From a virus (Duplodnaviria > Heunggongvirae > Uroviricota > Caudoviricetes), in IMG/VR virus record IMGVR_UViG_3300049489_000540: 64,000 bases of DNA. One strand, written 5' to 3'. How positions within the stretch are numbered: position 1 is the stretch's first letter; each line of letters opens with the position of its first letter. This document shows, piece by piece, positions 5,815 to 62,839 of the stretch. Under the pieces are notes generated by a model that saw nothing but the letters and a program-made list of their open reading frames with translations, did no database searches and was not told where the DNA came from. The position numbers and the translations under genes are program-made.

Positions 5815-5831
5815 ATCACTATTTATAAAAA

Positions 5832-21260: not shown

Positions 21261-21269
21261 GTAACATAT

Positions 21270-23750: not shown

Positions 23751-23795
23751 ATTATCTTATTTATAAGCTCTTGCTTTTTAAAAACTCACGATAAC

Positions 23796-38958: not shown

Positions 38959-38997
38959 AAGCAGCTATCCTATACCCTATATGCAGTTTTTCAACAA

Positions 38998-40698: not shown

Positions 40699-40709
40699 AA
40701 GTTATATCT

Positions 40710-41460: not shown

Positions 41461-41742
41461 ATGAACATTGTTAAATACAATGCTTGTAGAGACATTTGCC
41501 TTTATCATGTCATGGATAGTGTTAAGAATGATGTTGGCATGCTTATGCATAACGAAATAGAACACAACATTACGAAGTTCGTTACCAGCCTCGTTTTCGA
41601 TAATATTGAAACTCACGTTGAGTCTTCCGTAGACGATAATGTATGGGAACCTGTATGGGATAGTATGTTCAGTAATGTTGTATGTAAAATATTTACGGAT
41701 TCACAGCTTGAAGCGGCATTTGCAGCACTGGAGCGGATATGA
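41461..41742 (+). CDS. family-2 mini-protein (array 2, gene 1)
   Basis: SD aaagga; V-x-x-x-V-x-x-N octad/tetrad repeats; ends DSQLEAAFAALERI; ATGA overlap. Confidence 0.65.
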   Translation: MNIVKYNACRDICLYHVMDSVKNDVGMLMHNEIEHNITKFVTSLVFDNIETHVESSVDDNVWEPVWDSMFSNVVCKIFTDSQLEAAFAALERI

Positions 41743-42005
41743 AATCCATTATTAACGATGTTTGCGATACTCTGGATAAGTTAGATAATGTTGAAGGTAT
41801 CAGAATATATATTCAGGAGCATGCTTCGGTGCGTGCATATAATCCAGTCTGGGACATTGTTCAGTTAACTGTCTGGGATAATGTCTGGGAGAATGTGTTA
41901 AACCATCTTGATGCTGAAATTACAAGCACATTTTGTCATATGAAATATAAAAGATTCACCAAATCACAGCTTCAAGCCGCTTACCAGGCACTGGAGCAGC
42001 TATGA
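41739..42005 (+). CDS. family-2 mini-protein
   Basis: ends KSQLQAAYQALEQL; ATGA overlap. Confidence 0.65.
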   Translation: MKSIINDVCDTLDKLDNVEGIRIYIQEHASVRAYNPVWDIVQLTVWDNVWENVLNHLDAEITSTFCHMKYKRFTKSQLQAAYQALEQL

Positions 42006-42253
42006 AGGATAATGTGAGGGTCCGTATATGGGTTGATGTTCGTAGCAACATCATAGATAATGTTTGGAGTATTCTCAAACGGATCATTAGGGAACATACT
42101 GGTGTTAACGTCAGAAATAGTGTATGGGATAATATTCCAGAGCGCACTACGGATGACATGGAGGGTCTTACGAAGCCACATATCATGCATCATCTATGTA
42201 AGTCAACGGACCAACAGCTTGAAGCTGCTTACTTAGCACTGGAGCGGATATGA
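42002..42253 (+). CDS. family-2 mini-protein
   Basis: ends DQQLEAAYLALERI; ATGA overlap. Confidence 0.65.
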   Translation: MKDNVRVRIWVDVRSNIIDNVWSILKRIIREHTGVNVRNSVWDNIPERTTDDMEGLTKPHIMHHLCKSTDQQLEAAYLALERI

Positions 42254-42513
42254 ACCAGAGCCATCATAGAGATATTGTGATACGCCATGAAATAAAGGAT
42301 TATGTTGGTAGTATTGTCAGAAGTAAAGTTATAAGTCGTTGTGTAGACAAAGTAAAAGCTAATACCTTGGGTAATGTGTATGCTGATGCTACATCACATA
42401 TTCGTGATAATGTTAGGAGTTTTATTGATACAAATACTATAGCTAATGTTGGAAAAAGATCATGTACAGATTCACAGCTTGAAGCAGCTTACCAGTCACT
42501 GGAGCAGATATGA
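42250..42513 (+). CDS. family-2 mini-protein
   Basis: ends DSQLEAAYQSLEQI; ATGA overlap. Confidence 0.65.
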   Translation: MNQSHHRDIVIRHEIKDYVGSIVRSKVISRCVDKVKANTLGNVYADATSHIRDNVRSFIDTNTIANVGKRSCTDSQLEAAYQSLEQI

Positions 42514-42767
42514 TCGAGGATTATATAAAAGATTCTGTCTTGGAAACTATTCGGTCAACAACCAGTAACCGTTTAGATTCTATTATCATGGATAAGGCTT
42601 ATGACATTATGGATATTGTCAGAGAGAATGTTTGGGATCATCTTGATGGCAGTATATGGTCTAATGTCGATATGAATGTTAGGAATCAAATATGTCATGT
42701 TGCCCGTTATCAGTTGTTCACTCATTCACAGCTTGAAGCAGCTTATACCGTATTGGAGCAGATATGA
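42510..42767 (+). CDS. family-2 mini-protein
   Basis: ends HSQLEAAYTVLEQI; ATGA overlap. Confidence 0.65.
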   Translation: MIEDYIKDSVLETIRSTTSNRLDSIIMDKAYDIMDIVRENVWDHLDGSIWSNVDMNVRNQICHVARYQLFTHSQLEAAYTVLEQI

Positions 42768-43015
42768 GTAATGCAAAAAATGAAGAAATTTTATGGTGTA
42801 AACTCTGGAATAAGATCAAACAACGAAGCTGGAGTGTTGTCGCAAATAGTAATAGGGTTCACAATGTTCATGCTCATATCTGGACCAATGTTGATAATAG
42901 GATTGATTCGTGGCTCATGAGACATATACGGTCGGAAGTTAAGGAGACTATTCGTGATCGTAGATATGCTGAATTGCAACTTGAGGCAGCTTACCAGGCA
43001 CTGGAGCAGATATGA
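42764..43015 (+). CDS. family-2 mini-protein
   Basis: ends ELQLEAAYQALEQI; ATGA overlap. Confidence 0.65.
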   Translation: MSNAKNEEILWCKLWNKIKQRSWSVVANSNRVHNVHAHIWTNVDNRIDSWLMRHIRSEVKETIRDRRYAELQLEAAYQALEQI

Positions 43016-43263
43016 AACGTATATATATCCAAGTCAACGAAAAGGTTTGGGATGCGGTTAAGAAAGCAACAGATAGGCATATAAAACAGACATTTAAATA
43101 TGGTGTAGATCCCGTCAGCAGGCATGTTGATGATGTTGTCTACGATAATGTTTGGAATAATGTCTTGATGCATATTCGTATACGAGTAAACCATTCCAAC
43201 ATACGCAGATTATATACTGATTCGCAGCTTGAAGCCGCTTATGAGTCGCTGGAGGGATTATGA
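43012..43263 (+). CDS. family-2 mini-protein
   Basis: ends DSQLEAAYESLEGL; ATGA overlap. Confidence 0.65.
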   Translation: MKRIYIQVNEKVWDAVKKATDRHIKQTFKYGVDPVSRHVDDVVYDNVWNNVLMHIRIRVNHSNIRRLYTDSQLEAAYESLEGL

Positions 43264-43505
43264 ACCGATGTGAAAATACAGCCATCAATGATGTTTGGGA
43301 TAATATCTTATACAAAGCGCGGGAAGCCGTTAGATTCAGCATCGATAATGAATTATTTGAATTTGTTGAACTTCATATCGATATGAGAGTCCACAGTAGT
43401 GTGTGGAGTAACATCGGTGCCCCGACTTTTAACATGAATTTTAAACATATAATATGCACAGATTCGCAGCTTGAAGCCGCTTACCAGGCACTGGAGCAGT
43501 TATGA
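43260..43505 (+). CDS. family-2 mini-protein
   Basis: ends DSQLEAAYQALEQL; ATGA overlap. Confidence 0.65.
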   Translation: MNRCENTAINDVWDNILYKAREAVRFSIDNELFEFVELHIDMRVHSSVWSNIGAPTFNMNFKHIICTDSQLEAAYQALEQL

Positions 43506-43789
43506 TACTGGATGATATTTTCGCGGCTACTACGAATACTTCTGAGGGTACAATTAGACATGGTGTTGCGTCCATTGCCAAGACGAGAATCAAAGATAAT
43601 GTCGATGAGAATGATTATTGGAGCGTGTGGAACAGTGTGTTGGTTAGTAGTAGGAGTAATGTTATGGATAATGTCAATGAACATATCGCTAATAATACTT
43701 TGCGCAAATTCAAATACTTTTTCAGAGATGCGTCAATTACTGATTCGCAGCTTGAGGCTGCATATGCTGCTTTAAAAACTACAACTTGA
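43502..43789 (+). CDS. family-2 mini-protein (last of array; modified C-terminus)
   Basis: ends DSQLEAAYAALKTTT; stop overlaps the duplicated promoter. Confidence 0.6.
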   Translation: MILDDIFAATTNTSEGTIRHGVASIAKTRIKDNVDENDYWSVWNSVLVSSRSNVMDNVNEHIANNTLRKFKYFFRDASITDSQLEAAYAALKTTT

Positions 43790-44419: not shown

Positions 44420-44674
44420 CTACGGTGACTCTTCCATAACTCTGTAAGCTGCTTGAAGTTGTGATTCTGTAAATGATGCGTATTCGAAATGAGCAATAGT
44501 AATAGCTCTAATGTTCCATCCAACATTATTCCAAACATTAATTCCAGTATTATCATCTATATGATCTCCGACTAAAATCCAATCATCCTCACCGACATGA
44601 GTTCTGACAGCACCGTAGCTTTTAACTCTGATACTTATCCCAACATCAGGATCTACATTATGTAGGATTTTCAT
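44420..44674 (-). CDS. family-2 mini-protein (minus array, last gene)
   Basis: ends ESQLQAAYRVMEESP. Confidence 0.6.
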   Translation of the reverse strand: MKILHNVDPDVGISIRVKSYGAVRTHVGEDDWILVGDHIDDNTGINVWNNVGWNIRAITIAHFEYASFTESQLQAAYRVMEESP

Positions 44675-44922
44675 ATCCGCTCAGTCGCTTCATAAGATGC
44701 TCGAAGCTGTGAATCAGTGAACGATGTATATCCGACAGTATCATGAACATTATTCCAGACATTGCGTTTGATATTAATCCATATATTATCATGAATATTA
44801 GCTCTGATATAAGCTCCGACATAAGTTAATGCAATAGTTTCAGCACCACGCCCGATAATACCATGTGCATTGCTCCATATATCAGCCTTGACAGTTTCCA
44901 AGACACTATTTTTAACTCTCAT
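44671..44922 (-). CDS. family-2 mini-protein
   Basis: ends DSQLRASYEATERI; ATGA overlap. Confidence 0.65.
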   Translation of the reverse strand: MRVKNSVLETVKADIWSNAHGIIGRGAETIALTYVGAYIRANIHDNIWINIKRNVWNNVHDTVGYTSFTDSQLRASYEATERI

Positions 44923-45158
44923 ATCCGCTCCAATGCTTCAAATGCCGCTTCAAGTTGTGATTCGACATTCTTTTTACTAATGAATGTAGACGAAACCACA
45001 TGTCCGATATTGCGTCTGACATGATCTATGACATTAGCACTGACATTATTAAATATATTATTCGTGACAATGTGCATGATGTCAGCACCAACATGATTCT
45101 CGGCATTATCAAAGCCATTTTGTAAGATCCGGTTTTTGACAAGATTCCTGACATTCAT
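44919..45158 (-). CDS. family-2 mini-protein
   Basis: ends VESQLEAAFEALERI; ATGA overlap. Confidence 0.65.
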   Translation of the reverse strand: MNVRNLVKNRILQNGFDNAENHVGADIMHIVTNNIFNNVSANVIDHVRRNIGHVVSSTFISKKNVESQLEAAFEALERI

Positions 45159-45394
45159 ATCTGCTCCAATGCTGCATAAGCACCTTCAAGCTGCGAATTG
45201 GTACATGAATTTCTTTTAAACCTAGTCTTGACCGTATCTCTAACATTCATATAGAAATTGGTTCTGACATTGGCTCTGACATGAAACCAGACCTTACCTT
45301 GAAGATTATTTCTGACATTATTCTTGATATAAGACCATGTACTGTCTCTGACATCACTTCTAATATCTTTTGTAATACCTAGCATAATACTCAT
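45155..45394 (-). CDS. family-2 mini-protein
   Basis: ends TNSQLEGAYAALEQI; ATGA overlap. Confidence 0.65.
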   Translation of the reverse strand: MSIMLGITKDIRSDVRDSTWSYIKNNVRNNLQGKVWFHVRANVRTNFYMNVRDTVKTRFKRNSCTNSQLEGAYAALEQI

Positions 45395-45672
45395 ATTTTC
45401 TCCATTGCTGCATACGCTGCTTCAAGCTGCGAATACATGTGTGGTAGTCCGCGTCCGTAGTTGAATCTATTTCTGACATCCTCCCAAACACGATCACCCA
45501 CATTAGCCCATACATTGACTCTGACAGTATTTCTAACATTCATAAAAATAAGAGCAATATTACCATTATTATTTTTATCTATACAAATATCAGCTTTATA
45601 TCGGGCAAGCTTTAAGACAGTATAATCGACACTACCCCAAATATTATCCCAGACATATTCATCTGTACTCAT
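45391..45672 (-). CDS. family-2 mini-protein
   Basis: ends MYSQLEAAYAAMEKI; ATGA overlap. Confidence 0.65.
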   Translation of the reverse strand: MSTDEYVWDNIWGSVDYTVLKLARYKADICIDKNNNGNIALIFMNVRNTVRVNVWANVGDRVWEDVRNRFNYGRGLPHMYSQLEAAYAAMEKI

Positions 45673-45914
45673 ATCCGCTCCAATGCTGCATAAGCGGCTT
45701 CAAGTTGCGAATCATCATGTAGTGATTTGAATGCGAAATTATCTACAGTATCATAATAAACATGACTACCGACATTAGCCCATACGGTATCTCTGACAGT
45801 ATTTCTGATATTAATATAAACATCATTAACATATTCACACTTATCAGCTTTAGATCGAGCAACACCAAAGACATTATCTCTGACATCTTTCCAGCAATTA
45901 TGTCCAAACATCAT
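45669..45914 (-). CDS. family-2 mini-protein
   Basis: ends DDSQLEAAYAALERI; ATGA overlap. Confidence 0.65.
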   Translation of the reverse strand: MMFGHNCWKDVRDNVFGVARSKADKCEYVNDVYINIRNTVRDTVWANVGSHVYYDTVDNFAFKSLHDDSQLEAAYAALERI

Positions 45915-46162
45915 AGCTGCTCCAGTGCTTCGTAAGCTGCTTCAAGCTGCTGGTTTGTATATACTTTACGAATAGTATAACTTTTAACATACATTCTGGC
46001 ATTACTCCTGACATTATCGGAGACATTGGTACTGACAAATGCTAAAATATAATCCACAGCATCGGCTCTGACGCCAATCTCAACATTACTCGCAGAATTT
46101 ATCCTGGCTTGAGCCTTAATACTATCCCAGACATAAGCCAAAACAGATTTATCTACTCTCAT
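45911..46162 (-). CDS. family-2 mini-protein
   Basis: ends NQQLEAAYEALEQL; ATGA overlap. Confidence 0.65.
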   Translation of the reverse strand: MRVDKSVLAYVWDSIKAQARINSASNVEIGVRADAVDYILAFVSTNVSDNVRSNARMYVKSYTIRKVYTNQQLEAAYEALEQL

Positions 46163-46476
46163 ATTTGCTCCAGTGACTTGTAAGCGGCTTCAATCTGCGA
46201 ATCACATTCACATTCAATTTTATATTCAAGATTGGTGTCAACATGTTTAGCCACATGAGCATAAATGTGAGCCTCAACACCAAGCCAAACATTTCTTTCA
46301 ACACGCTCCCAAATATTACTCTCAACAAGGTTGAAGATAGATAGCTTGGTTTGTTTAAAAACAACAGCCTTAGCGGTATGTCCAATGTCAGACCAGACAT
46401 TGACCCGAACATCGTTACGGACAACATGCATGTTGCTACACCTATCGTTGCATTTAAGCTTACGAGTATTCTTCAA
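46159..46476 (-). CDS. family-2 mini-protein (true start may be the internal Met at 46431)
   Basis: ends CDSQIEAAYKSLEQI; NVWxxV repeats. Confidence 0.6.
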   Translation of the reverse strand: MKNTRKLKCNDRCSNMHVVRNDVRVNVWSDIGHTAKAVVFKQTKLSIFNLVESNIWERVERNVWLGVEAHIYAHVAKHVDTNLEYKIECECDSQIEAAYKSLEQI

Positions 46477-46535
46477 AAAGTCAACAATGACTTTTTAAAG
46501 TACCTATGAATGTAAACACATGCAGCTAAAGGTGT

Positions 46536-46844
46536 TTATTCCAATGCGGCATAAGCAGCTTCGAGTTGACTTTCGATATTTGGTGTGTTGAGGAAATTAC
46601 CTCTGATATTTCCGTCAACATTATTACTGACATTTTCAATAACATTATCCCAAACATTCCTATTTACATGAATCTTAACATTATCAAAAACACGAACATT
46701 GGTATTATTCTTGACATGATTCCTGGTACGATTCTTGACACTATCCCAAACCTTTGTCATGACATCGTTCCAGACAGCATTTTTGACATGAAGCCTGGTA
46801 CTGATCTTCATGACATCGTTCCAGACAGCATTTTTGACACTCAT
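46536..46844 (-). CDS. family-2 mini-protein (first gene of minus array; internal 31-nt duplication)
   Basis: ends IESQLEAAYAALE; the VKNAVWNDVM segment appears twice because of the direct repeat catgacatcgttccagacagcatttttgaca; ATGA overlap with the regulator gene. Confidence 0.6.
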   Translation of the reverse strand: MSVKNAVWNDVMKISTRLHVKNAVWNDVMTKVWDSVKNRTRNHVKNNTNVRVFDNVKIHVNRNVWDNVIENVSNNVDGNIRGNFLNTPNIESQLEAAYAALE

Positions 46845-48116: not shown

Positions 48117-48356
48117 ATGGCTACCAATAAGCATGAGCGGAATTACCTGAGATTTGTCGAAGCTCAACAGAACGAGGTCATCAATGAACGGAACCGATTC
48201 CAGACCCAGCTAACGCTGTCGATTTACGATCTGGAAACCATCATCTGCCTTCTGCCGCCCGGCAGACTCAGTGCCAAACTCCAAGGTGCGCTCAAGCATG
48301 CTGAACAACAGTTCAAAATACGAGATGTCGATTTCGGTGATTTGAAAGAGGACTGA
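48117..48356 (+). CDS. hypothetical small protein
   Basis: 79 aa; stop overlaps the next gene's ATG at 48356. Confidence 0.45.
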   Translation: MATNKHERNYLRFVEAQQNEVINERNRFQTQLTLSIYDLETIICLLPPGRLSAKLQGALKHAEQQFKIRDVDFGDLKED

Positions 48357-48640
48357 TGAAGTCCTATACGCAGCAGCTTGAGGAACATATTGAGCAGCTA
48401 CAACAGTCGCTTGCCAAGACGCAAGCACATTCGTTACAGTGGTATAAGGTTTCACCACGACTATACGAATTCCGTGTAGGTGCATATGCCATTGGTAAAG
48501 TCGAAAAATACAATGATCATTGGGTAGCTATGATCATTGCAAAAGGATTCAATAACGGATCGGGTGGATTCTGCGTACATCAGACGCCGGAAGCCGCCAA
48601 GATGGATGTAGAGGAAACCATATTCAGTACCATACCATGA
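48356..48640 (+). CDS. family-1 protein
   Basis: N-term MKSYTQQLEEHIEQLQQSLAKTQAHSLQWYKV. Confidence 0.65.
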   Translation: MKSYTQQLEEHIEQLQQSLAKTQAHSLQWYKVSPRLYEFRVGAYAIGKVEKYNDHWVAMIIAKGFNNGSGGFCVHQTPEAAKMDVEETIFSTIP

Positions 48641-49149
48641 GCGAATACACCACAAAACTAGAGAACCATATCGAGCAACTGGAAGAGCAGCTTGCCGATG
48701 CTGAACGGAAACTTGCCAAGTTTCCATCCATCAATAAACGAGATATCAATCCCGAGTATATGACCAGCCCCATGTATCCATTCTTGCAAAAGCTGCATGC
48801 GCTGCCAGGAATCATGGTTGATTGGGTACATCCACATGCACCTATTATTGAAAGTTTTGCAATTAAAATAGGTTTTACAGCAATACCATGTTATGACAAT
48901 ATTGGTCTATGGATCTTTCTGCGTGCCATAAACCAGAGATATTGGAATTATGCTGATGATTGGATGTTAGAATCAGCCATAGATGATGTCAGTATCCGCA
49001 CGCGGTTCGTGTTCCTTTCGAAAAAACCATATAAAGAAGCCAAATCCGAATTAGATAATCTTGGACGGCAAATAGATTTCATAGTCAATCATCCGAATTT
49101 ATCTCAAGATTTTGGCATCACCAAAGAACGATTACATGAACCCGTATGA
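48637..49149 (+). CDS. family-1 protein
   Basis: N-term MSEYTTKLENHIEQLEEQLADAERKLAKF; ATGA overlap. Confidence 0.65.
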   Translation: MSEYTTKLENHIEQLEEQLADAERKLAKFPSINKRDINPEYMTSPMYPFLQKLHALPGIMVDWVHPHAPIIESFAIKIGFTAIPCYDNIGLWIFLRAINQRYWNYADDWMLESAIDDVSIRTRFVFLSKKPYKEAKSELDNLGRQIDFIVNHPNLSQDFGITKERLHEPV

Positions 49150-49472
49150 GCAGCTACACACAACAACTAGAAGAACACATCGAGCAGCTACAAGAGAAAC
49201 TTACCCGTGCTGAAACATTACTGCATGCATCTGTTGTCTTAACATGGTATCGACTGCCTAAAAATGAAAACCGATGGGATTTGATGATCATAGGAATTCC
49301 AAATACGCATATTGCGACAATATTACGATTTCAAGATTATTATCAATTATCATGGGCAGGAACAAACCCAATATATATTCCATCGAATTATCCGTCGCTT
49401 AAACAAGCACAAGACGAAGCACGGGAAATTCTCAAGGTACGCGCCGAGTCATACATTAAAATCGCATTGTGA
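49146..49472 (+). CDS. family-1 protein
   Basis: N-term MSSYTQQLEEHIEQLQEKLTRAETLLHAS; ATGA overlap. Confidence 0.65.
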   Translation: MSSYTQQLEEHIEQLQEKLTRAETLLHASVVLTWYRLPKNENRWDLMIIGIPNTHIATILRFQDYYQLSWAGTNPIYIPSNYPSLKQAQDEAREILKVRAESYIKIAL

Positions 49473-50554: not shown

Positions 50555-50830
50555 TTATTTTTCAGTAACTATTTTATAAGCTGCTTCAAGCTGCGAATCC
50601 GTGAACAATTCATTACTAACATACCCACTGACGCAAGCCCAAACAATGGTCCCAATAATATCCCATACTCTACCTCCAATATTCCTTCGAATATTCGCAC
50701 CAACCAGATCGACAATATCGTTCTCGACACGATACATAACACAATTATACGCCATATCACCGCACTGGTTCCGCACATCACAACCAACATTAAGAACATT
50801 TACAAACACATCCGTTCGTAATTGCTTCAT
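50555..50830 (-). CDS. family-2 mini-protein
   Basis: ends FTDSQLEAAYKIVTEK. Confidence 0.6.
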   Translation of the reverse strand: MKQLRTDVFVNVLNVGCDVRNQCGDMAYNCVMYRVENDIVDLVGANIRRNIGGRVWDIIGTIVWACVSGYVSNELFTDSQLEAAYKIVTEK

Positions 50831-51102
50831 AGCTGCTCCAGTGACTCATAAGCTGCTTCAAGCTGTGAATCCGTATGTGTGTTAGCTTTGATATTATTCC
50901 AAACATGAACATAGACCCTATCCTTGACACTACGTTTGATATTGGTCAACGTATGATCCCGCATATGAGTCAAAGCATAATTCCAAACAGCAGCCTTGGA
51001 ATTACTTTTGACGGCATTCCAGCCGCTGTCCCCGACATATTTCCTGACTAATAAATGAATAGGCGCACTACAAATCATGTCTTCAATAAAGTCACTACTC
51101 AT
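50827..51102 (-). CDS. family-2 mini-protein
   Basis: ends HTDSQLEAAYESLEQL; ATGA overlap. Confidence 0.65.
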   Translation of the reverse strand: MSSDFIEDMICSAPIHLLVRKYVGDSGWNAVKSNSKAAVWNYALTHMRDHTLTNIKRSVKDRVYVHVWNNIKANTHTDSQLEAAYESLEQL

Positions 51103-51401
51103 AGCCGCTCCAATGCCATATATGCTGCTTCAAGCTGCGACTTGGTTACTCTCGCTTCCATATCTTCCACACCAATGTCCCAAATATCATCCCTGATAGC
51201 ATCAATACGCTCGGTAGCATTCCAGACGTTCTCCACAACGAGATTCCAAACAATATTCGTAACATTCTTACCAATATGACTATGGAACGTATTCTTGACT
51301 TTGCGTATAACGCCATCCTCAACGTGATCCCATATACGATCATTGACTCTATCAAGAGTACGCATGCCGTTATACATTACTGTCATCTTTAAAAAGAGCA
51401 A
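51099..51401 (-). CDS. family-2 mini-protein
   Basis: ends TKSQLEAAYMALERL; ATGA overlap. Confidence 0.65.
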   Translation of the reverse strand: MLFLKMTVMYNGMRTLDRVNDRIWDHVEDGVIRKVKNTFHSHIGKNVTNIVWNLVVENVWNATERIDAIRDDIWDIGVEDMEARVTKSQLEAAYMALERL

Positions 51402-51701: not shown

Positions 51702-53006
51702 CTATTTTAGAGGGTCTATTAAGACCCTCTTTAGCTCTTGTTTTATTTCTTCCCATGTTTGTTTATAGGTAAAATAGAGAAGCTGATATCCATTGTCAGC
51801 AGCCCATGCTTTCTTAATAGCATCATGTCGTTGCCGTTCTTCAAAATTCAATTGAGCATCTTCAGTGGATGAACCAAACACTGGTCTAAAATGCTGCTCA
51901 CCTTGATACTCAATAAGCAACTTGCGCTGATCAATATAAAAATCAAATGGTAACGGTCGAATGTTTCTACATTCTTCAAACTTCTTCTGGTGTACATATG
52001 TAATTTTATGCCTATCTAAAAACTCAAATATGTTCTGCTCTCCTAATGATGACGCACATCGAGGACAACCATATCCTTGTAAAATACTAGTTGGACAAGT
52101 CACCCATTCATGCCCATCAATTAAACACTTCCATGCTATTTTTATTCCAGAATTAACAACATTACCAAGCCGCCGAATGTGCATATCAGCAATTCTCTCA
52201 TCTACACGCTCATTCGTTAGTGGAAGATTACCAGCACACTTCGGACATCCACTTTTATACGATACACTACTTGGAGTAGCCATCCACTCATGCCCATCCA
52301 CTAAACATCTAAATAAAATTCTACTACCAGAATTTATAATGTTACCAAGCCGCTGAATCTGCTTATCCTTAAGCCGCTCGTCCATAATCTCGTTCGTTAT
52401 TGGAAGTTTACCAGCACACTTCGGACATCCTTTACCTTTCGATATATCATTTGGTCGAGCCATCCACTCAAGACCATCAATCGTACATTTCCATAATACG
52501 CATGTTTCTGTATCAACAACCTCACCAAGACGCACGATAGGTCGATTCTTAATCCTCTTGTCCATAATCTCATTTGTTAGCCGCCGTGCTTGTGAGGCTT
52601 GCTTACGCATTAACTTACCACATTTCGGACATCCCTTACCCATCGATATATCATTTGGACTTGCCATCCATTCATGTCCATCAATCGTACACTTCCATAG
52701 TACCTTTGTTTTGCTTGTCGTAACATCACCAAGCCGCTGAATTGGTCTATCCTTAAGCCGCTCATCCATGATTTCGTTCGTTACATGAGCCGTACCAGCA
52801 CACTTCGGACAACCATGACCTTTTGAAACTTCGGATGGTGTAGTCATCCATTCATAACCATCAATTAAACATTTAAATAAAGTCTTTGCCTTACCATGAG
52901 TAACATCACCAAGCCGCTGAATAGGTCTACCTTTAAGTCGTGTATCGATTATCTCATTGGTTAGCTTCCTCATCCATGTATTATAGGAAACCGTCCTAGG
53001 TTTCAA
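51702..53006 (-). CDS. putative endonuclease: five tandem ~55-aa zinc-ribbon repeats plus C-terminal restriction-endonuclease-like (PD-(D/E)xK-type) domain
   Basis: 434 aa; repeat unit TNEIMDERLKDRPIQRLG...W(K/R)C.IDGHEW...GCPKCAG x5; C-term PFDFYIDQRKLLIEYQGEQHF; homing-endonuclease-like architecture inferred. Confidence 0.55.
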   Translation of the reverse strand: MKPRTVSYNTWMRKLTNEIIDTRLKGRPIQRLGDVTHGKAKTLFKCLIDGYEWMTTPSEVSKGHGCPKCAGTAHVTNEIMDERLKDRPIQRLGDVTTSKTKVLWKCTIDGHEWMASPNDISMGKGCPKCGKLMRKQASQARRLTNEIMDKRIKNRPIVRLGEVVDTETCVLWKCTIDGLEWMARPNDISKGKGCPKCAGKLPITNEIMDERLKDKQIQRLGNIINSGSRILFRCLVDGHEWMATPSSVSYKSGCPKCAGNLPLTNERVDERIADMHIRRLGNVVNSGIKIAWKCLIDGHEWVTCPTSILQGYGCPRCASSLGEQNIFEFLDRHKITYVHQKKFEECRNIRPLPFDFYIDQRKLLIEYQGEQHFRPVFGSSTEDAQLNFEERQRHDAIKKAWAADNGYQLLYFTYKQTWEEIKQELKRVLIDPLK

Positions 53007-53041
53007 TACACCAGCTTATTTTTTAATGGCTATTCTTTCAG

Positions 53042-53165
53042 CTATCAAACCGTCTATTTTTTAGAGTCTATTTTGTAGCTGCTTATTTTGTAGCCTTCTA
53101 TTTTGATACATCTATTTTCGCTCGTCTATTTTGAGCCTTCTATTTTCAGCTTACTATTTTTAGAG
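53042..53165. repeat. array of ~9 direct 12-14-nt repeats TCTATTTT(G/T)(A/T)GCC (iteron-like)
   Basis: gtctatttttt agagtctattttgtagc tgcttattttgtagcc ttctattttgataca tctattttcgctcg tctattttgagcc ttctattttcagc ttactattttt; non-coding, at the AT-rich/GC-rich boundary. Confidence 0.7.
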
Positions 53166-53299
53166 AACTATATCTAGTACCCTTCCAAACACTATTCTAT
53201 ATATGGTATGTTCTTATTTATAAAAGATCCCGTGGTTTTTATAAGAGTGCAACTGCCAGCTACTTACAACTACTTGCAACTACCATTATCCCATACCAG

Positions 53300-54040
53300 G
53301 CAATAGACGAAAGAGAGAGGCACTAGAAAGGGCTTGTTCAGTTCCATAGGAAGGCTCATAGATAAAAGAAATAGAACATGCCTCTGGTCGAGTCAGAGAG
53401 GTTACTTCATAGGTCGCTGGATAGGCTGCTGATAGGCTGCTGGTGAAGCTGCTTGTCAAGTTGCTGGATAGGCTGCTGGATAAGCCGCTGGCATAGCTAC
53501 GAACCAAGCTGCTTCTTTCTCGTAAGTATACCTCAAGCAGCTTATACGCCCCTTCCGAGTAACTGAAAAATCCGCCAGGAAATCGGACCAGCAGCTTTAT
53601 AGGGGTCCAAAAGAACCCCTTATGAGCCGCTTGAAGTGATTTCGAGTCCTTGAAAAATCGGAAGGACTTGTCAAGCGGCTTTTCCAGTGTATGACACAGC
53701 CGCTTGGACCAGCAACGTGTAGTGTACCTGGCGGGCGGAACTTTGCAAGCGACTTCCCTGCCGCTCGAAAGCTGCTGTGTGACACACTCGCCCAGGTCCA
53801 TGACACAGCGGACACGCCGGTCCAGGCTGCTCTTGAGAGCAGACTAAGCCACTTACCATGCTCTTGCGAGCAGCTATGCAGTCCCCGTATAGCCGCTTGC
53901 TAGTCCCTCCAAGGACTTACAGGAAATAACACAATACCTGCTATCGGACAAATCGACTGTCAAGCCGCTCGGAAGGGAATGGAAAACTGCTCGGAAGCTG
54001 CTGGCAGAGTGACACACCGGATACGCCCGCCTGGACCTGG
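53300..54040. repeat. non-coding GC-rich zone dense in AAGC(N)GCTT / TCAAGCGGC motifs in both orientations (iteron-like; relics of the family-2 junction repeat)
   Basis: e.g. caagcagcttatacg 53531, gagccgcttgaag 53622, tgtcaagcggctt 53668, cagccgcttgg 53697, tagccgcttgc 53887, tgtcaagccgct 53957; the track ORFs here translate to low-complexity junk. Confidence 0.55.
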
Positions 54041-54050
54041 AATCTCGATG

Positions 54051-54077
54051 TTGACTTTCTACAAAGCATGGTAGGAT
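54051..54077 (+). promoter_or_regulatory. promoter TTGACTT-N15-TAGGAT (early-module consensus)
   Basis: gttgactttctacaaagcatggtaggat; SD aaggag precedes the ATG at 54096. Confidence 0.55.
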
Positions 54078-54095
54078 GATGGGTACAAGGAGCCA

Positions 54096-54545
54096 ATGAC
54101 CATGGGCTACTGCATCGAGATGGATGTCAACGACCTCATCATTCCGCAGAAGCACATGGCAAAGGCTCTCAGTGACATCAATGCGCTGCACAAGGACCAG
54201 GCGACCATCATCAAGAACCATGGTGGCGGCATGTCCACTTGTGGCGGCAAGACCACTTACAGCTACTCCTGGGTCGATCAGCCGCCCGAAGGTGGTTTCA
54301 AGACGCTGGTGGAAGCGTTCGATGCGTGGCGATACGAAGCTCGCATCACCGAGAACGGTGATTGCCTGGTCGATGCGTTCCAAGGTGAGAAGCTGGGTGA
54401 TTGCCATGTGCTGTGGTCGGCAGTCGCCAAGTACGTCAATCCCAAGGCATGGATTCATGTCAAGGGTGAGGACGGTGACCAGTGGAAGTGGGAGTTCAAG
54501 AAGGGGAAGTTCAAGGAGTTCAAGGGCAAAGTTTCTTTCCGTTGA
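54096..54545 (+). CDS. hypothetical protein (GC-rich early-module gene)
   Basis: 149 aa MTMGYCIEMDVNDLIIPQKH... Confidence 0.55.
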   Translation: MTMGYCIEMDVNDLIIPQKHMAKALSDINALHKDQATIIKNHGGGMSTCGGKTTYSYSWVDQPPEGGFKTLVEAFDAWRYEARITENGDCLVDAFQGEKLGDCHVLWSAVAKYVNPKAWIHVKGEDGDQWKWEFKKGKFKEFKGKVSFR

Positions 54546-56763: not shown

Positions 56764-57018
56764 ATGTGTGATAATCCCTTCGAACTGTACGCTTCGATGC
56801 CGGGTGTATGTGGTGCTACTCGCTCCATCAAGGCTGCGATCAAGCGGGCGCAGCACAAGGTGATCGAAGGCATGCCTGCCCAGATGGCATATAAGGAGGT
56901 CCGCAAGGTGCTGGACCGCTACACGCACCTGGGTGCGGGCGACTCCGAGCCACGCTGGCATGCTGCCAAGCTGTTCGCTCAAGGCTGCGGTCTGGATCCC
57001 GACGATTTCTACTGCTAG
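56764..57018 (+). CDS. hypothetical small protein
   Basis: 84 aa MCDNPFELYASMPGVCGATRSIKAAIKRAQHK... from the internal ATG of the track ORF. Confidence 0.45.
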   Translation: MCDNPFELYASMPGVCGATRSIKAAIKRAQHKVIEGMPAQMAYKEVRKVLDRYTHLGAGDSEPRWHAAKLFAQGCGLDPDDFYC

Positions 57019-57026
57019 CCGCTGGG

Positions 57027-57060
57027 AAAGCCACTCGTCAAGAGTGGCTTTCTTGGTTTT
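57027..57060 (+). terminator. rho-independent terminator
   Basis: aaagccactc-gtcaa-gagtggcttt cttggtttt. Confidence 0.65.
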
Positions 57061-57112
57061 ATTCGAGAGAGTGATACAGCGGATACGCCAGCCGCCTGGT
57101 CAAGAAACGACA

Positions 57113-57150
57113 AAAGCCACTCCGAAGAGTGGCTTGTCGGTTTGCTTATT
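57113..57150 (+). terminator. second near-identical hairpin, 86 nt downstream (tandem or bidirectional terminator)
   Basis: aaagccactc-cgaa-gagtggctt gtcggtttgctt. Confidence 0.55.
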
Positions 57151-57159
57151 CAGCCGCTA

Positions 57160-57396
57160 TCAGCCTACTGGTTCCAGCTTGAGAACGCTTTCTTGAAGGA
57201 TCTTGCTGGAAATGTAGATCGCAGCACCTTCACGCGCAAACTTGATGTAGGTGGTTTTACCCGCCGCGCCCATGGCAAGCATGTCTTTCAGTTCCTTGAT
57301 TTCATCTGCCGTATGCTCGTTGGGGTCCGAGTAGTAGGTCGAACCTGACGGCAGATGATGAACGACGATGCGGTGTCTGGTCACGGTCGCCATCAA
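57160..57396 (-). CDS. hypothetical protein
   Basis: 78-aa ORF. Confidence 0.45.
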   Translation of the reverse strand: MMATVTRHRIVVHHLPSGSTYYSDPNEHTADEIKELKDMLAMGAAGKTTYIKFAREGAAIYISSKILQESVLKLEPVG

Positions 57397-59255: not shown

Positions 59256-59368
59256 TAGAGAGTTTATCACCCATGGGCACATGCTACCAAGGACTATAAA
59301 AATTACAAGAGAGTGATACACCAGAAACGCCGCCCGAATTCAAAATACACTCTAGACTTTTTTCAAAC

Positions 59369-61338: not shown

Positions 61339-62709
61339 ATGAGTATCAAGACTGTTACTGCCAATGGCGCTGCTACCTTCAAGTCCACGGGTGATGCGCT
61401 CGTCAACCTCTTCTTCCAGATCGGCGCGAGCCGCAACAATCCAGACGCTGCCAAGCGTCTGTTCGATGCTGCGATGGCTGATGATCTGCTCAAGGCAACC
61501 GCCATTCTCTGCTGGGCGCGTGACGCTCGCGGTGGTGCTGGTGAGCGTAATATCTTCCGTGTGCTGGTGAAGGAGCTTGTCGATTCCGACGAGTCGCTGG
61601 CTCGCAAGGTCGTGAACCTTGTGCCGCGCATCGGTCGTTTCGATGACCTCACCGTGTTCTACGGCACCAAGGTGGAAGCCGACGCCATCAATGTGTGGGT
61701 CGGTGCGCTTCGTTCCGACAATGCGCTCGCTGCGAAGTGGGCGGATCGTAAGGACAAGAAGCTCCAGCGTGCGCTGCGCATGAACGAGGCTGCGCTGCGT
61801 AAGTTCCTGTCGAACATGCGCAAGCACACCATCGTGGAAAACGCGATGTGCCAGAACGAGTGGTCCAACATCGAGTACGGCAAGCTGCCGTCCGTCGCTG
61901 GCATGCGCTACTCCAAGGCGTTCAAGAAGCACGATGAAACCCGCTATGCGGAGTTCATGGGCAACAAGAACACCAAGGTCAATGCTGGTGTCGCGTACCC
62001 ATACGATGTGTACCGTCTGCTCATGGCTGGTCAGAGCGATGCAACCGTGGTCGCAGCGGCTACCAAGTATTGGGAGAATCTGAACAAGCTGTCGGTGGCT
62101 GGCAACATCCTCTGCATGGCTGACGTTTCGGGTTCGATGGCTGGTGCGATAGCATCGGGTTCCGTCACATGCATGGATGTGTCGATTTCCTTGTCCGTGT
62201 TCTTGTCGCAACAGATCAAGGGCGCGTTCAACGGCAAGCTGATGACATTCAGTGAGTCCCCGACGCTGGTGAATCTGCCGTCCAAGGGCAATCTGCTTGA
62301 TCTGTTCCAGTTCACCAGCCGCATGAATTGGGGCATGAACACGAACCTTGAGGCAGCGTTCGCTGCGATTCTCAAGGAGGCGGTGCGCTTCAAGGTCAAG
62401 CCAGCCGACATGCCGACCATGCTGCTGGTTCTCTCCGACATGGAGTTCGACCGTGCGGCTGGTGGAGCGACCCTGAGCGATTCCATGAAGGCGCAGTACA
62501 AGGCTGCTGGCTACGAGCCGCCGAAGATGTGCTGGTGGAATCTGAATGGCAGCGGAAAGAATTTCCCTGTCATGAAGAACGAGAAGGGTTCCTGTCTGGT
62601 GTCTGGTTTCAGCCCGAAGGTGCTGGAAGCGGTCATCGCTGCCAAGGAATTCACGCCGATCAGCGTGGTTGAGGAAGCGATCAAGCCGTACCTTGACCTC
62701 TTGAAGTGA
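61339..62709 (+). CDS. vWA-domain protein (MIDAS motif DxSGS) with N-terminal alpha-helical domain, possibly TROVE/Ro60-like
   Basis: 456 aa; MIDAS CMADVSGSMAG near residue 264; SD aaaggaa. Confidence 0.55.
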   Translation: MSIKTVTANGAATFKSTGDALVNLFFQIGASRNNPDAAKRLFDAAMADDLLKATAILCWARDARGGAGERNIFRVLVKELVDSDESLARKVVNLVPRIGRFDDLTVFYGTKVEADAINVWVGALRSDNALAAKWADRKDKKLQRALRMNEAALRKFLSNMRKHTIVENAMCQNEWSNIEYGKLPSVAGMRYSKAFKKHDETRYAEFMGNKNTKVNAGVAYPYDVYRLLMAGQSDATVVAAATKYWENLNKLSVAGNILCMADVSGSMAGAIASGSVTCMDVSISLSVFLSQQIKGAFNGKLMTFSESPTLVNLPSKGNLLDLFQFTSRMNWGMNTNLEAAFAAILKEAVRFKVKPADMPTMLLVLSDMEFDRAAGGATLSDSMKAQYKAAGYEPPKMCWWNLNGSGKNFPVMKNEKGSCLVSGFSPKVLEAVIAAKEFTPISVVEEAIKPYLDLLK

Positions 62710-62753: not shown

Positions 62754-62839
62754 GCCCTTGTGGCGGAATGGTATACGCAAAAGTTTTAAAAACTTTCGGG
62801 GGAAACCCCATGTCGGTTCGAGTCCGACCACCGGCACCA
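62754..62839 (+). tRNA. tRNA-Leu: tRNA-Leu(UAA)-like gene (type II, long variable arm); acceptor stem has two mismatches
   Basis: anticodon stem aaagt/acttt with loop TTTAAAA (anticodon TAA); variable arm ggggg-aaa-cccc; T-arm gtcgg-TTCGAGT-ccgac; 3' caccggc-A-CCA; 5' strand gcccttg pairs only 5/7. Confidence 0.55.

What the first reader, a model, noticed from the sequence alone, without database searches (positions are those of the whole stretch)
53300..54040. A 0.75-kb non-coding GC-rich zone is packed with AAGC(N)GCTT / TCAAGCGGC motifs (iteron-like; relic junction repeats)
At least 8 copies of the 9-mer TCAAGCGGC / GCCGCTTGA and related AAGCAGCTT / AAGCTGCTT motifs occur in both orientations. 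The ORFs called here translate to low-complexity sequence containing fragments such as SLQAAH, EGAYKLLEVY and LSAAYPATYE, which echo the family-2 C-terminal motif SQLEAAYxALE. The zone lies between the AT-rich accessory block and the GC-rich promoter module. Candidate roles are a replication origin or iteron cluster, a recombination hotspot that seeds cassette arrays, or decayed cassettes.
Basis: seen in the sequence. Interest (0 to 1): 0.65.

Follow-up and report, generated by a model that had tools for sequence, protein, structure and literature searches.

The report
Conserved non-coding protein-binding repeat zone
A 1.1-kb gene-free stretch of an uncharacterised phage genome is packed with conserved, regularly spaced short DNA words that look like docking sites for a DNA-binding protein, most likely a replication origin or control hub and not the remains of decayed genes.

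Summary
The motif cluster is real. AGCNGCT occurs 13 times in 53300-54040, against 0.66 expected from shuffles, and this is the densest 740 bp of the window.

The whole interval 53007-54095 is non-coding. It lies between two diverging genes and is homologous, part by part, in the only relatives found (L042, L001, and more distantly L003). From left to right it holds:
- an AT-rich tract of about ten KCTATTTT repeats;
- a conserved TATAAATA block;
- a 12-bp lattice of 7-8 AGCNGCT units;
- about 14 dispersed AGCNGCT sites phased at about 10.7-11 bp;
- a core about 260 bp long that is visibly well conserved, ending at a sigma-70-like promoter.

Site cores are better conserved than spacers (89% against 74%), and the central N varies. 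No ORF is conserved. I found no RNA covariation, no Rfam match, and no similarity to the SQLEAAY cassette family beyond the 9-mer.

Best reading: a cis-acting array of protein-binding sites, most likely an iteron-type replication origin with an adjacent easily melted tract (confidence about 0.4). A transcription-control or centromere-like hub, or a terminal region like the T5 injection stop signal, remain live rivals. "Decayed cassettes" is not supported. This is a new member of a known kind and of moderate interest.

The parts
52980..53006 (-). Promoter-like site of the left-hand gene (51702-52973, minus strand; five DUF4379 zinc modules + CapR + DUF559). It reads TTGAAA (53006-53001), a 15-nt spacer, TATAAT (52985-52980), then ATG 6 nt downstream.
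   Evidence: Read from the sequence. The same TTGAAA-N15-TATAAT-N6-ATG arrangement is present in L042. The gene is syntenic in L042.
53017..53174 (+). AT-rich tract of about ten direct KCTATTTT repeats, mostly 14-15 nt apart. It is a candidate unwinding element or a second protein-binding array.
   Evidence: the repeat finder family D1 and TRF period 14. Six exact TCTATTTT copies lie here against 3 in the rest of the window. L042 keeps about 10 copies in the same orientation while the spacers have diverged. The tract is among the least stable duplex segments of the window (tied for first of 64 kb at the 300-bp scale, fourth at 200 bp) and of L042 (rank 1-2).
53205..53245 (-). Conserved block GGTAT..TTCTTATTTATAAAAG..GTTTTTATA. 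On the minus strand it contains TATAAATA (53222-53215), the T4-late-promoter word.
   Evidence: Conserved between the window and L042. TATAAATA occurs 6 times in the window. Five copies lie 5-17 nt upstream of gene starts in the correct orientation; the sixth is this one.
53415..53515 (+). Tandem array of 7-8 units of 12 nt (consensus GCYGCTKGnAnA). It places one AGCNGCT word every 12 bp.
   Evidence: TRF period 12, 6.4 copies. Site centres are 53427, 53438, 53450, 53462, 53474, 53486 and 53510; best period 11.9, R = 0.99. L042 has 8 units on an exact 12-bp lattice, R = 1.00.
53530..54005 (.). About 14 dispersed AGCNGCT (AAGCNGCT-T/G) sites. Some are composite: TGTCAAGCNGCT, and AGCNGCT followed by GTGTGACAC(AC). 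Seven of them (53751-53894) lie on an exact 11-bp lattice.
   Evidence: Site list. Spacings are 11, 11, 55, 22, 22, 22. Equivalent spacings in L001 are 11, 11, 54, 22, 22, 22. Best period is 10.7 bp in the window (R = 0.68), L001 (R = 0.80, P < 0.001) and L003 (R = 0.67). Site cores are 87-92% conserved against 71-77% for other columns (pooled Fisher P = 1e-5), and the central N is no better than background.
53797..54050 (.). Best-conserved core of the zone, immediately upstream of the right-hand promoter. The three-way alignment shows long invariant runs here; I judged identity at roughly 85-90% by eye and did not compute it for this interval.
   Evidence: Three-way alignments A4 and A5. In the window-L001 pairwise alignment, 50-nt blocks across this stretch are 76-92% identical. 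Divergence across the module is mosaic: neighbouring proteins are 50-53% identical (SprT-like, 191 aa, 164 aa), others 87-93%. There are frame-breaking 1-nt indels and no conserved ORF.
53801..53818 (+). Copy of the 18-nt directional element TGAYACASCGGAYACGCC.
   Evidence: Four copies in the window (53801, 54010, 57072, 59314), all on the plus strand and all intergenic, against 0.22 expected. L001 has exact copies at the positions that correspond to window 54010 and 57072.
54010..54027 (+). Second copy of the 18-nt element, 23 nt upstream of the -35 hexamer.
54051..54080 (+). Sigma-70-like promoter (TTGACT ... TGgTAGGAT/GATGAT) of the first plus-strand gene (54096-54545).
   Evidence: Promoter scan. 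GTTGAC is conserved in L001 and GTTGAA in L042. The word GTTGACTTTC recurs before downstream genes.

Best explanation
The interval 53007-54095 is a conserved, non-coding, cis-acting DNA element. It consists of arrays of short words that serve as binding sites for one or more sequence-specific proteins.

The main word is the 7-bp odd palindrome AGCNGCT, usually AAGCNGCT followed by T or G. There are 18-28 copies per genome. They are laid out first on a 12-bp lattice and then on a phase of about 10.7-11 bp, which would put successive sites on roughly one face of the helix. That geometry suits cooperative assembly of a large nucleoprotein complex.

Directly beside it lies an easily melted AT-rich tract of about ten KCTATTTT repeats. 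The whole element sits where transcription diverges and where cumulative GC skew turns.

I take it most likely to be a replication origin of the phage, or one of several, that works like an iteron origin. An initiator would coat the phased AGCNGCT arrays, and the stress would open the neighbouring AT-rich tract for helicase loading.

Shown: the motif statistics, the non-coding status, the conservation of architecture and of site cores, the phasing and the low duplex stability. Inferred: that a protein binds, that binding is cooperative, and that the outcome is replication initiation.
For: Motif enrichment:
- 13 AGCNGCT against 0.66 in shuffles; the densest spot in 64 kb.

A selected element:
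- The same order of parts is present in L042 (full length) and L001 (right-hand part).
- Site cores are 144/162 identical against 702/953 for other columns (Fisher P = 1e-5), and the central N varies.
- Sites turn over while their number stays high: 18, 25 and 15 sites, 13 of them private to L042.
- L003, whose sequence has diverged strongly, still has 12 AGYNRCT sites in 376 nt.

Phasing:
- Exact 12-bp lattices (R = 0.99-1.00) and an exact 11-bp lattice of 7 sites, whose spacings are kept in L001.
- Best period is 10.7 bp in three loci.

Origin-like neighbourhood:
- The adjacent AT-rich repeat tract is among the least stable duplex segments of the window and of L042.
- Cumulative GC skew reaches its minimum for the window at about 53.3 kb.
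- Genes diverge from the zone.

Not coding, and no RNA evidence:
- No ORF is shared.
- RNAalifold gives a positive (penalising) covariation term on both strands. Most variable predicted pairs are broken.
- No Rfam family matches.

Sites do not look like simple operators:
- None overlaps either flanking promoter in the window. The nearest is about 50 bp upstream of the -35 of the right-hand promoter.
Against: - No initiator-type protein (Rep, O, DnaA-like or helicase-loader) was recognised among about 90 window proteins scanned. Most of them are ORFans, and only 64 kb of a 91-kb contig is visible.
- There are no DnaA boxes in the zone.
- The GC-skew turn coincides with the switch in gene orientation, so it is not independent evidence.
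- The stability ranking is a near-tie with several other AT-rich segments.
- Classical iterons are 17-22-bp direct repeats, not 7-bp palindromes.
- The same word classes recur in miniature in the convergent intergenic region at 57.02-57.16 kb: two AGCCGCT, two relaxed AGCCACT in hairpins, and the 18-nt element. That fits a multi-target regulator at least as well as a single origin.
- The conserved TATAAATA block suggests that transcription signals are part of the zone.
- The 11-bp lattice was picked out after looking at the data. For the window's dispersed sites as a whole, P is only 0.03.
Confidence: 0.4

Rival explanations
1. Transcription-control hub. The arrays would be binding sites for a phage regulator that organises the switch between the two diverging transcription units. 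It would act as a silencer, an enhancer or a clamp-loading site upstream of the early sigma-70 promoter, in the manner of the KorB global regulator of plasmid RK2.
For: - The zone lies between two promoters.
- The best-conserved core abuts the right-hand promoter.
- In L003 a palindromic site, GTCAAGCCACTTGAC, overlaps the -35 TTGACA of the first promoter.
- A miniature of the motif set recurs at 57.02-57.16 kb, and the 18-nt element recurs at 59.31 kb, suggesting several targets.
- The AGCSGCT core is the centre of the KorB operator TTTAGCGGCTAAA (PMC11790492).
- A TATAAATA late-promoter-like word is conserved inside the zone.
Against: - In the window, L001 and L042 no strict site overlaps a promoter hexamer.
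- 20-28 sites over 600 bp is far more than operators usually need.
- No HTH, ParB or RHH regulator was recognised in the window.
- The full KorB operator is absent even with 2 mismatches allowed.
Confidence: 0.25
2. Terminal or packaging-related untranslated region. Possibilities are a collapsed terminal repeat, a pac/cos region, or an injection-stop region like the T5 iss, placed ahead of the first genes to enter the cell.
For: - It is a large, conserved untranslated region, rich in repeats and palindromes, next to early-type genes with host-type promoters. The T5 iss region is described in the same terms (bioRxiv 10.1101/866236).
- Contigs of two relatives end inside the zone. L001 starts just after the 12-nt array, and L003, L004 and L005 all start at the same base.
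- Genes run outward on both sides.
Against: - The 91-kb contig of the window and the 24.6-kb contig of L042 both run straight through the zone.
- L003, L004 and L005 may be re-assemblies of the same data.
- Contig breaks are also expected where the variable accessory block begins.
- There are no DnaA boxes, unlike the T5 iss.
- No terminase gene is nearby.
- No part of the zone is repeated elsewhere in the window.
Confidence: 0.12
3. Centromere-like site. The 12-bp and 11-bp arrays of a short word would be coated by an adaptor protein of the ParR, TubR or ParB type, to position or segregate phage DNA.
For: - From my own knowledge of the literature: tandem short repeats on a 11-12-bp lattice are the hallmark of parC (R1, 11 bp) and tubC (12 bp) centromeres.
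- The palindromic core is shared with a ParB-family operator.
- Lattices are shown.
Against: - No ParA, ParM, TubZ or adaptor gene was recognised in the window.
- The genome looks virulent: it has rIIA/rIIB and no integrase or plasmid functions were seen.
Confidence: 0.08
4. A long non-coding RNA or 5' leader. The repeated AAGCNGCU words would be protein-binding sites on RNA, making the transcript a protein sponge.
For: - The core is conserved contiguously, including its spacers.
- Flanks of the word are biased to the plus strand: AA precedes it in 14-15 of 20 sites.
- The 18-nt element is strictly directional and could be a promoter.
- Both strands fold better than shuffles, z = -4.5 and -5.4.
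Against: - The low z-scores are expected from many self-complementary words.
- RNAalifold on three sequences gives positive covariation terms. On the plus strand there is 1 compensated pair against about 15 broken ones.
- No Rfam family matches, even at E of 5 or less.
- No promoter-terminator pair brackets the core.
- With only three close sequences the test is weak.
Confidence: 0.07
5. Decayed copies of the family-2 (SQLEAAY) cassettes, or a recombination site that seeds cassette arrays.
For: - AAGCNGCTT is shared with the 3' end of nearly every cassette.
- One 13-nt identity, AAGCAGCTTATAC (53535-53547 and 42736-42748), has E = 0.86.
- Inside the cassettes this word is under unusual synonymous constraint while its central N is free.
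Against: - Protein and DNA profiles of 24 cassettes find nothing in the zone (0.2 bits or less).
- The zone has a fixed architecture that is conserved in relatives. L042 keeps the zone although its neighbouring small genes lack the SQLEAAY motif.
- The flanks differ: C-AAGC in the zone, G-AAGC in the cassettes.
Confidence: 0.04

Closest known systems
Iteron-type replication origins (phage lambda ori with four dyad-symmetric O-binding sites plus an AT-rich region; plasmid iteron origins; the non-coding repeat region and RepA iterons of the Vibrio PLE satellite, PMC7145576)
   Same: Multiple copies of a short binding word, helically phased, next to an AT-rich easily melted tract, in a gene-free stretch. 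As in lambda, the word has dyad symmetry. As in PLE, several repeat families share one non-coding region.
   Different: The word is only 7 bp, against 17-22 bp for typical iterons, and there are 20-28 copies instead of 4-10. No initiator gene is adjacent or recognisable. There are no DnaA boxes. Replication from here is not shown.
KorB operator OB of IncP plasmid RK2 (TTTAGCGGCTAAA; ParB-family CTPase clamp) (PMC11790492)
   Same: The central seven bases, AGCSGCT, form the same odd palindrome. Several sites per genome lie in regulatory regions and can act at a distance from promoters.
   Different: The flanks differ (AAGC..GCTT, not TTTAGC..GCTAAA), and the 13-mer is absent even with 2 mismatches allowed. 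The central base is free here. Sites are clustered 20-fold rather than single. No ParB/KorB-like gene was seen in the window.
Plasmid and phage centromeres made of short tandem repeats (R1 parC 11-bp repeats; pBtoxis and phage c-st tubC 12-bp repeats). Recalled from memory, not checked here.
   Same: Tandem units of 11-12 bp that a dimeric adaptor could coat into a filament.
   Different: No adaptor or NTPase gene was found. The array continues into 500 bp of dispersed sites and a conserved core. The host genome looks virulent.
Injection stop signal (iss) region of T5-like phages (bioRxiv 10.1101/866236)
   Same: A large untranslated region in a virulent phage, crowded with direct repeats, inverted repeats and palindromes, conserved across relatives and adjacent to the first-expressed genes.
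   Different: The T5 iss is defined by its place in the terminal repeat and by eight DnaA boxes. No DnaA boxes occur here, and a terminal location is unknown.

Membership tests
Iteron-type replication origin | Several copies of an initiator-binding word, regularly spaced or helically phased | tested here: met
   13 strict and 21 relaxed AGCNGCT sites. There are 12-bp and 11-bp lattices, and the best period is 10.7 bp in three loci.
Iteron-type replication origin | Adjacent AT-rich, easily unwound region | tested here: met
   53000-53299 has 31-36% GC. It is tied for least stable of 64 kb at the 300-bp scale and is fourth at 200 bp. The equivalent tract in L042 ranks 1-2. Margins over other AT-rich segments are small.
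Iteron-type replication origin | Cognate initiator gene next to or overlapping the origin | tested here: inconclusive
   No Rep, O or helicase-loader family appeared among about 90 window proteins in Pfam or PHROGs. The neighbours are ORFans, and 27 kb of the contig is unseen. The 149-aa neighbour was modelled (pLDDT 79.6) and had no fold match in the PDB.
Iteron-type replication origin | Host factor sites (DnaA boxes) | tested here: not met
   TTATCCACA with up to 1 mismatch gives no hit in 53007-54095.
Iteron-type replication origin | Strand-compositional switch at the site | tested here: inconclusive
   The cumulative GC-skew minimum of the window is at about 53.3 kb. It coincides with the change of gene orientation, and the genome is incomplete.
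Iteron-type replication origin | Replication actually starts there | not testable with these tools
   Needs marker-frequency data, 2D gels or an autonomous-replication assay.
ParB/KorB-type operator or centromere | 13-16-bp palindromic site of the family (OB: TTTAGCSGCTAAA) | tested here: not met
   Only the 7-bp centre is shared. The 13-mer is absent at up to 2 mismatches. The extended palindrome GTCAAGCNGCTTGAC is never complete in the window; the best copies have 2 mismatches.
ParB/KorB-type operator or centromere | ParB-family protein (and ParA partner) encoded by the element | tested here: inconclusive
   None was recognised in the window. The rest of the genome was not available.
Short-repeat centromere (parC/tubC type) | Tandem 6-12-bp repeats bound by an RHH or wHTH adaptor, with a cognate NTPase operon alongside | tested here: inconclusive
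   The repeat lattice is present. No adaptor or NTPase operon is alongside.
T5-type injection stop / terminal untranslated repeat region | Location inside a terminal repeat; ordered DnaA boxes | tested here: not met
   There are no DnaA boxes. A terminal location cannot be tested, and two contigs read through the zone.
Family-2 (SQLEAAY) cassette genes, decayed | Residual similarity to the cassette profile at protein or DNA level | tested here: not met
   hmmsearch gave a best sequence score of 0.2 bits (E = 0.36) and a best domain of -2.1 bits. nhmmer gave -0.1 bits over 15 nt.
Structured non-coding RNA | Match to a known family, or covariation supporting a conserved fold | tested here: not met
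   Rfam gave no hit at gathering threshold. At E of 5 or less it returned only a chance CRISPR-DR hit. RNAalifold covariation terms are +2.9 and +6.7 kcal/mol, and broken pairs predominate. Power is low with 3 sequences.
Protein-coding gene | Open reading frame conserved in relatives | tested here: not met
   The 171-aa minus-strand ORF of the window is split into ORFs of 51, 63 and 55 aa in L042. 1-nt indels occur between relatives.

The most novel reading that the evidence does not exclude
The word AAGCNGCTT may be read at the DNA level in two places by one phage protein: in this control zone, and at the 3' junction of every family-2 cassette gene. In the 24 cassettes the codons that spell the word are fixed far beyond amino-acid needs (Leu CTT 22/23, Ser TCR 21/22, Glu GAA 18/20, second Ala GCT 18/23). 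The wobble base that corresponds to the central N is free. If one site-specific binding or recombination protein recognises both, the zone could be the organising site of a cassette-array system in a virulent phage, loosely comparable to an integron platform with its attC-like junctions.
Probability: 0.06. Interest if true: 0.85.

Novelty: new member of a known kind. Interest (0 to 1): 0.4.

Why it matters
This phage lineage has no close relative in reference collections, and most of its genes are ORFans. A sharply defined, conserved cis-element is therefore one of the few handles on how it replicates or schedules its genes.

The element gives a concrete bait for finding the cognate protein: AGCNGCT arrays on 12-bp and roughly 11-bp lattices. 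It also gives a testable position for an origin or for a terminus.

If the site proves to be an origin, it would extend iteron-type origins to very short palindromic words in high copy. If it proves to be a ParB/KorB-like loading site, it would place that mechanism in a lytic-type phage.

Tried and rejected
Searches for relatives:
- DNA and protein searches of reference phages found no DNA match. rIIA matches known phages at 30% identity or less.
- IMG/VR scans with two flanking proteins found nothing.
- IMG/VR scans with two more proteins returned only 32-35% relatives or nothing.
- Motif-pattern scans gave only chance hits: IMG/VR, JGI metagenomes (25 loci, only L017 = L004 real) and GTDB genomes.
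- The three searches of the large protein database show the lineage is known from only four groups of contigs.

Readings of the zone that I tested and rejected:
- Decayed cassettes: profiles of 24 cassettes against the zone gave nothing.
- A cluster of host-type promoters, as at the T7 left end: only one acceptable sigma-70 site, at 54051. TTGACA hexamers created by GCTTGACA have no -10 partner (read by eye).
- DnaA boxes and the KorB 13-mer: absent.
- nut-like boxA (TGCTCTT at 53828 and 53859): not conserved in L042 or L001.
- MotA-box, sigma-54, SP6-type promoter and Chi-like (GCTGG) readings of the words: considered by eye only. Matches are partial and the host is unknown, so none was adopted.

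Search for the trans-acting protein:
- Pfam and PHROGs on about 90 window proteins gave only rIIA/rIIB, SprT-like, DUF2828, a Zn-module endonuclease-like protein and weak HTH/GcrA hits.
- PDB sequence searches of four neighbours were empty.
- The AlphaFold model of the 149-aa neighbour (pLDDT 79.6) has no PDB fold match.
- One Pfam call failed on a wrong frame.
- Exact look-ups of the window's own proteins are not on record, so the remaining 27 kb of the contig could not be fetched.
Full report
**What the window is**

The 64-kb window comes from a phage. rIIA- and rIIB-like genes lie at 9844-11991 and 8848-9786 on the minus strand. There is a Ro/TROVE-like DUF2828 protein next to a tRNA-Leu. 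Most genes are ORFans.
- Reference phages share no DNA with it, and rIIA is at most 30% identical.
- The large protein database places the window on a 91-kb JGI contig.
- Relatives exist in only three other contig groups. L001 is 7.9 kb, with a neighbouring protein 76% identical. L042 is 24.6 kb, with a SprT-like protein 53% identical. L003, L004 and L005 are 7-8 kb, with a neighbouring protein 66% identical.

**Checking the observation**

The motif cluster is real.
- In 53300-54040, AGCNGCT occurs 13 times against 0.66 in 1000 dinucleotide-preserving shuffles of the zone. AAGCNGCTT occurs 4 times against 0.03, and CAAGCNGC in either orientation 8 times against 0.26.
- No other 740-bp stretch of the window is as dense.
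- Genome-wide, AAGCNGCTT is also enriched, 26 copies against 0.9. Outside the zone it is almost always coding: it is the codons GAA-GCN-GCT-T of the C-terminal S-Q-L-E-A-A-Y motif of about 83-aa tandem genes.

**Extent and anatomy**

The gene-free interval is 53007-54095, larger than the finding.
- On the left, a gene on the minus strand (51702-52973) carries five tandem DUF4379 zinc modules, CapR and a DUF559 endonuclease-like end.
- On the right, a plus-strand gene (54096-54545) sits behind a sigma-70-like promoter at 54051.

Between them, from left to right:
1. A promoter-like TTGAAA-N15-TATAAT-N6-ATG for the left gene.
2. An AT-rich tract of about ten KCTATTTT repeats at 14-15-nt spacing, 53017-53174.
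3. A block containing TATAAATA on the minus strand at 53215-53222.
4. A 12-nt tandem array at 53415-53515, whose unit junctions create one AGCNGCT every 12 bp.
5. About 14 dispersed AGCNGCT sites up to 54005. Some are composite: TGTCAAGCNGCT, and AGCNGCT followed by the second odd palindrome GTGTGACAC.
6. Two copies of an 18-nt directional element, TGAYACASCGGAYACGCC. It also occurs at 57072 and 59314, always on the plus strand and always intergenic.

**It is not coding**
L042 has no ORF above 72 aa in its zone, and L001 has different ORFs.
- The alignments contain 1-nt indels.
- A profile of 24 cassette proteins against the six-frame translation of the zone scores at most 0.2 bits. A DNA profile scores -0.1 bits over 15 nt.
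- SLQAAH, LSAAYPATYE and the like are therefore chance by-products of translating a GCNGCT-rich sequence.

**It is conserved as an element**

L042 has the same synteny: small genes, then the DUF4379 gene on the minus strand, then a 1.09-kb gene-free zone, then plus-strand genes including the SprT-like gene and DUF2828 with its tRNA-Leu. Its zone aligns with the window part by part:
- the KCTATTTT tract, with the same number and orientation of repeats but diverged spacers;
- the TATAAATA block;
- the 12-nt array, which is 8 units on an exact lattice in L042;
- the dispersed sites;
- a right-hand core (window 53797-54050) with long invariant runs in all three sequences, roughly 85-90% identical by eye.

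Divergence in this module is mosaic. SprT-like, 191-aa and 164-aa proteins are 50-53% identical, while DUF2828, 91-aa and 125-aa proteins are 87-93% identical. The core is thus about as conserved as the best-kept genes, not more so.

Within the zone, selection is visible at the level of the word.
- AGC/GCT core positions are identical in 144 of 162 comparisons, against 702 of 953 for other columns (Fisher P = 1e-5). The central N is no better than background.
- Sites also turn over. Thirteen are private to L042, while the total stays at 15-25.
- L003, whose zone can no longer be aligned base for base, still carries 12 AGYNRCT sites and 5-6 TGTGTGAGACAC words in 376 nt.

**Spacing**
- The array sites sit on a 12-bp lattice: R = 0.99 in the window and 1.00 in L042.
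- Seven window sites, 53751-53894, sit on an exact 11-bp lattice. The spacings 11, 11, 55, 22, 22, 22 are kept as 11, 11, 54, 22, 22, 22 in L001.
- The best period for the dispersed sites is 10.7 bp in the window (R = 0.68, P = 0.03), L001 (R = 0.80, P < 0.001) and L003 (R = 0.67, P = 0.06). L042 prefers local 12-bp steps.
- The sub-selection of the 11-bp run was post hoc. The agreement of three loci on a near-helical period is the stronger point.

**RNA or DNA?**
- Both strands of the zone fold better than shuffles (z = -4.5 and -5.4). That is expected from many self-complementary words.
- On three aligned sequences RNAalifold gives positive (penalising) covariation terms on both strands. Most variable predicted pairs are broken rather than compensated.
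- Rfam finds nothing.
- No promoter-terminator pair brackets the core.

I therefore read the element as acting at the DNA level. The RNA test has little power.

**Mechanism**

The features point to a platform on which a sequence-specific protein, probably dimeric, assembles cooperatively. Those features are many copies of a short palindrome, phased with the helix, with conserved cores, a free centre and a maintained copy number. Three further observations tilt me towards a replication origin:
- The flanking KCTATTTT tract is among the most easily melted stretches of both genomes. It is tied for first of 64 kb at the 300-bp scale and fourth at 200 bp in the window, and ranks 1-2 in L042.
- Cumulative GC skew reaches its window minimum at about 53.3 kb.
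- No site overlaps either flanking promoter in the window, so simple operator occlusion is unlikely.

Against this:
- No initiator gene was recognised.
- There are no DnaA boxes.
- The skew turn coincides with the switch of gene orientation.
- The stability ranking is a near-tie.
- A miniature of the motif set at 57.02-57.16 kb, and the extra copies of the 18-nt element, suggest a factor with several targets.

I put the origin reading at about 0.4, a transcription-control hub at 0.25, a terminal, packaging or injection-stop region at 0.12, a centromere-like site at 0.08, an RNA at 0.07 and cassette relics at 0.04.

**Comparison with known systems**
- The architecture works like an iteron origin: lambda ori has dyad-symmetric sites plus an AT-rich region, and the PLE satellite has a non-coding region with several repeat families and RepA iterons (PMC7145576). 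The word here is much shorter and far more numerous, and two defining features were not met or not testable: an adjacent initiator gene and demonstrated initiation.
- The 7-bp core equals the centre of the KorB operator TTTAGCGGCTAAA (PMC11790492). The operator itself is absent, and no ParB-family gene was seen.
- The T5 iss region is a good analogue as a conserved, repeat-crowded untranslated region of a virulent phage (bioRxiv 10.1101/866236). Its DnaA boxes are missing here, and a terminal position is unknown.

I therefore file the zone as a new member of the general kind [quoted passage not shown], not as a member of any named family.

**An unexplained side observation**

In the 24 family-2 cassettes the codons that spell AAGCNGCTT and its left flank are fixed well beyond amino-acid needs:
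- Leu CTT 22/23 against a 45% background;
- Ser TCR 21/22 against 25%;
- Glu GAA 18/20 against 55%;
- second Ala GCT 18/23 against 47%.

The first Ala wobble, which is the N of the word, is free. This could reflect translational coupling signals or concerted evolution. It leaves a small chance, about 0.06, that the word is read at the DNA level in both places.

**Verdict**

The "iteron-like" interpretation is plausible, and "decayed cassettes" is not supported. Interest is moderate at 0.4.

Noticed in passing
window 36548-37313, 41461-43789 (+); 44420-46844, 50555-51401 (-): 24 tandem genes of about 83 aa share a C-terminal SQLEAAYxALEQI motif, and each stop overlaps the next start (ATGA). The motif codons are synonymously constrained (Leu CTT 22/23, Ser TCR 21/22, Glu GAA 18/20, second Ala GCT 18/23) while the first Ala wobble is free, which spells AAGCNGCTT.
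   Followed up: partly
window 2-9, 2116-2123 (+); 5820-5827, 21267-21274, 23758-23765, 53215-53222 (-): TATAAATA, the T4 late-promoter word, occurs 6 times. Five copies lie 5-17 nt upstream of a gene start in the right orientation, including the three largest ORFs at the window start. The total count is not above chance, but the placement is striking.
   Followed up: partly
window 53801-53818, 54010-54027, 57072-57089, 59314-59331 (+): An 18-nt directional element, TGAYACASCGGAYACGCC (extended form AGAGTGAYACA..GCCnGCC), occurs four times against 0.22 expected. All copies are intergenic and on the plus strand. L001 has exact copies at the positions that correspond to window 54010 and 57072. 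Function unknown; it could be a promoter or regulator site.
   Followed up: partly
window 57017-57160: A convergent intergenic region holds two terminator-like hairpins (AAAGCCACTC..GAGTGGCTTT) that flank the 18-nt element, with AGCCGCT words at both edges. It is a miniature of the motif set of the main zone.
   Followed up: no
window 61339-62709 and 62754-62839; L042 13387-14745 and 14790-14875: A DUF2828/DUF7788 (TROVE/vWA-like) protein, labelled 'RNA-binding protein' in PHROGs, is followed 45 nt later by tRNA-Leu(TAA). The pair is conserved in L042. It is reminiscent of Ro60-like proteins encoded next to their RNA partners.
   Followed up: no
window 51702-52973 (-); L042 3465-5321 (-): An endonuclease-like protein has five tandem DUF4379 treble-clef zinc modules, CapR and a DUF559 end. 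It is syntenic with the zone in L042, where it is 618 aa and has more repeats. Its promoter TTGAAA-N15-TATAAT lies 6 nt from the ATG, which suggests a leaderless mRNA. A protein with tandem DNA-binding modules sits next to tandem DNA repeats.
   Followed up: partly
L003 1-24; L003/L004/L005 starts: Contig L003 begins with a Nextera transposase adapter (AGATGTGTATAAGAGACAG). L003, L004 and L005 all begin at the same base inside their motif zone. This is either an assembly break or a physical end, and the three may be re-assemblies of one data set.
   Followed up: no
window 8790-8825: A perfect hairpin, GACGAGCGGCTGGTCTAAAAAACCAGCCGCTCGTC, lies between the 8170-8751 gene (minus strand) and rIIB. 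It looks like a bidirectional terminator, and its stem contains AGCGGCT/AGCCGCT.
   Followed up: no
window 6814-8170, 38336-41072 (-), 48356-49472 (+): A second multigene family has an N-terminal motif M-S-x-Y-T-x-x-L-E-x-x-x-E-E-L-Q-E-Q-L-A. Its E-Q-L codons (GAG CAG CTT) account for many of the AGCAGCT words outside the zone.
   Followed up: no
whole window: Composition is mosaic. Blocks of about 50-57% GC (9-12 kb, 26-28 kb, 34-36 kb, 54-64 kb) alternate with ORFan blocks of about 35-42% GC that are rich in tandem paralogues. Divergence from L042 is equally mosaic, 50-93% protein identity within 10 kb.
   Followed up: no
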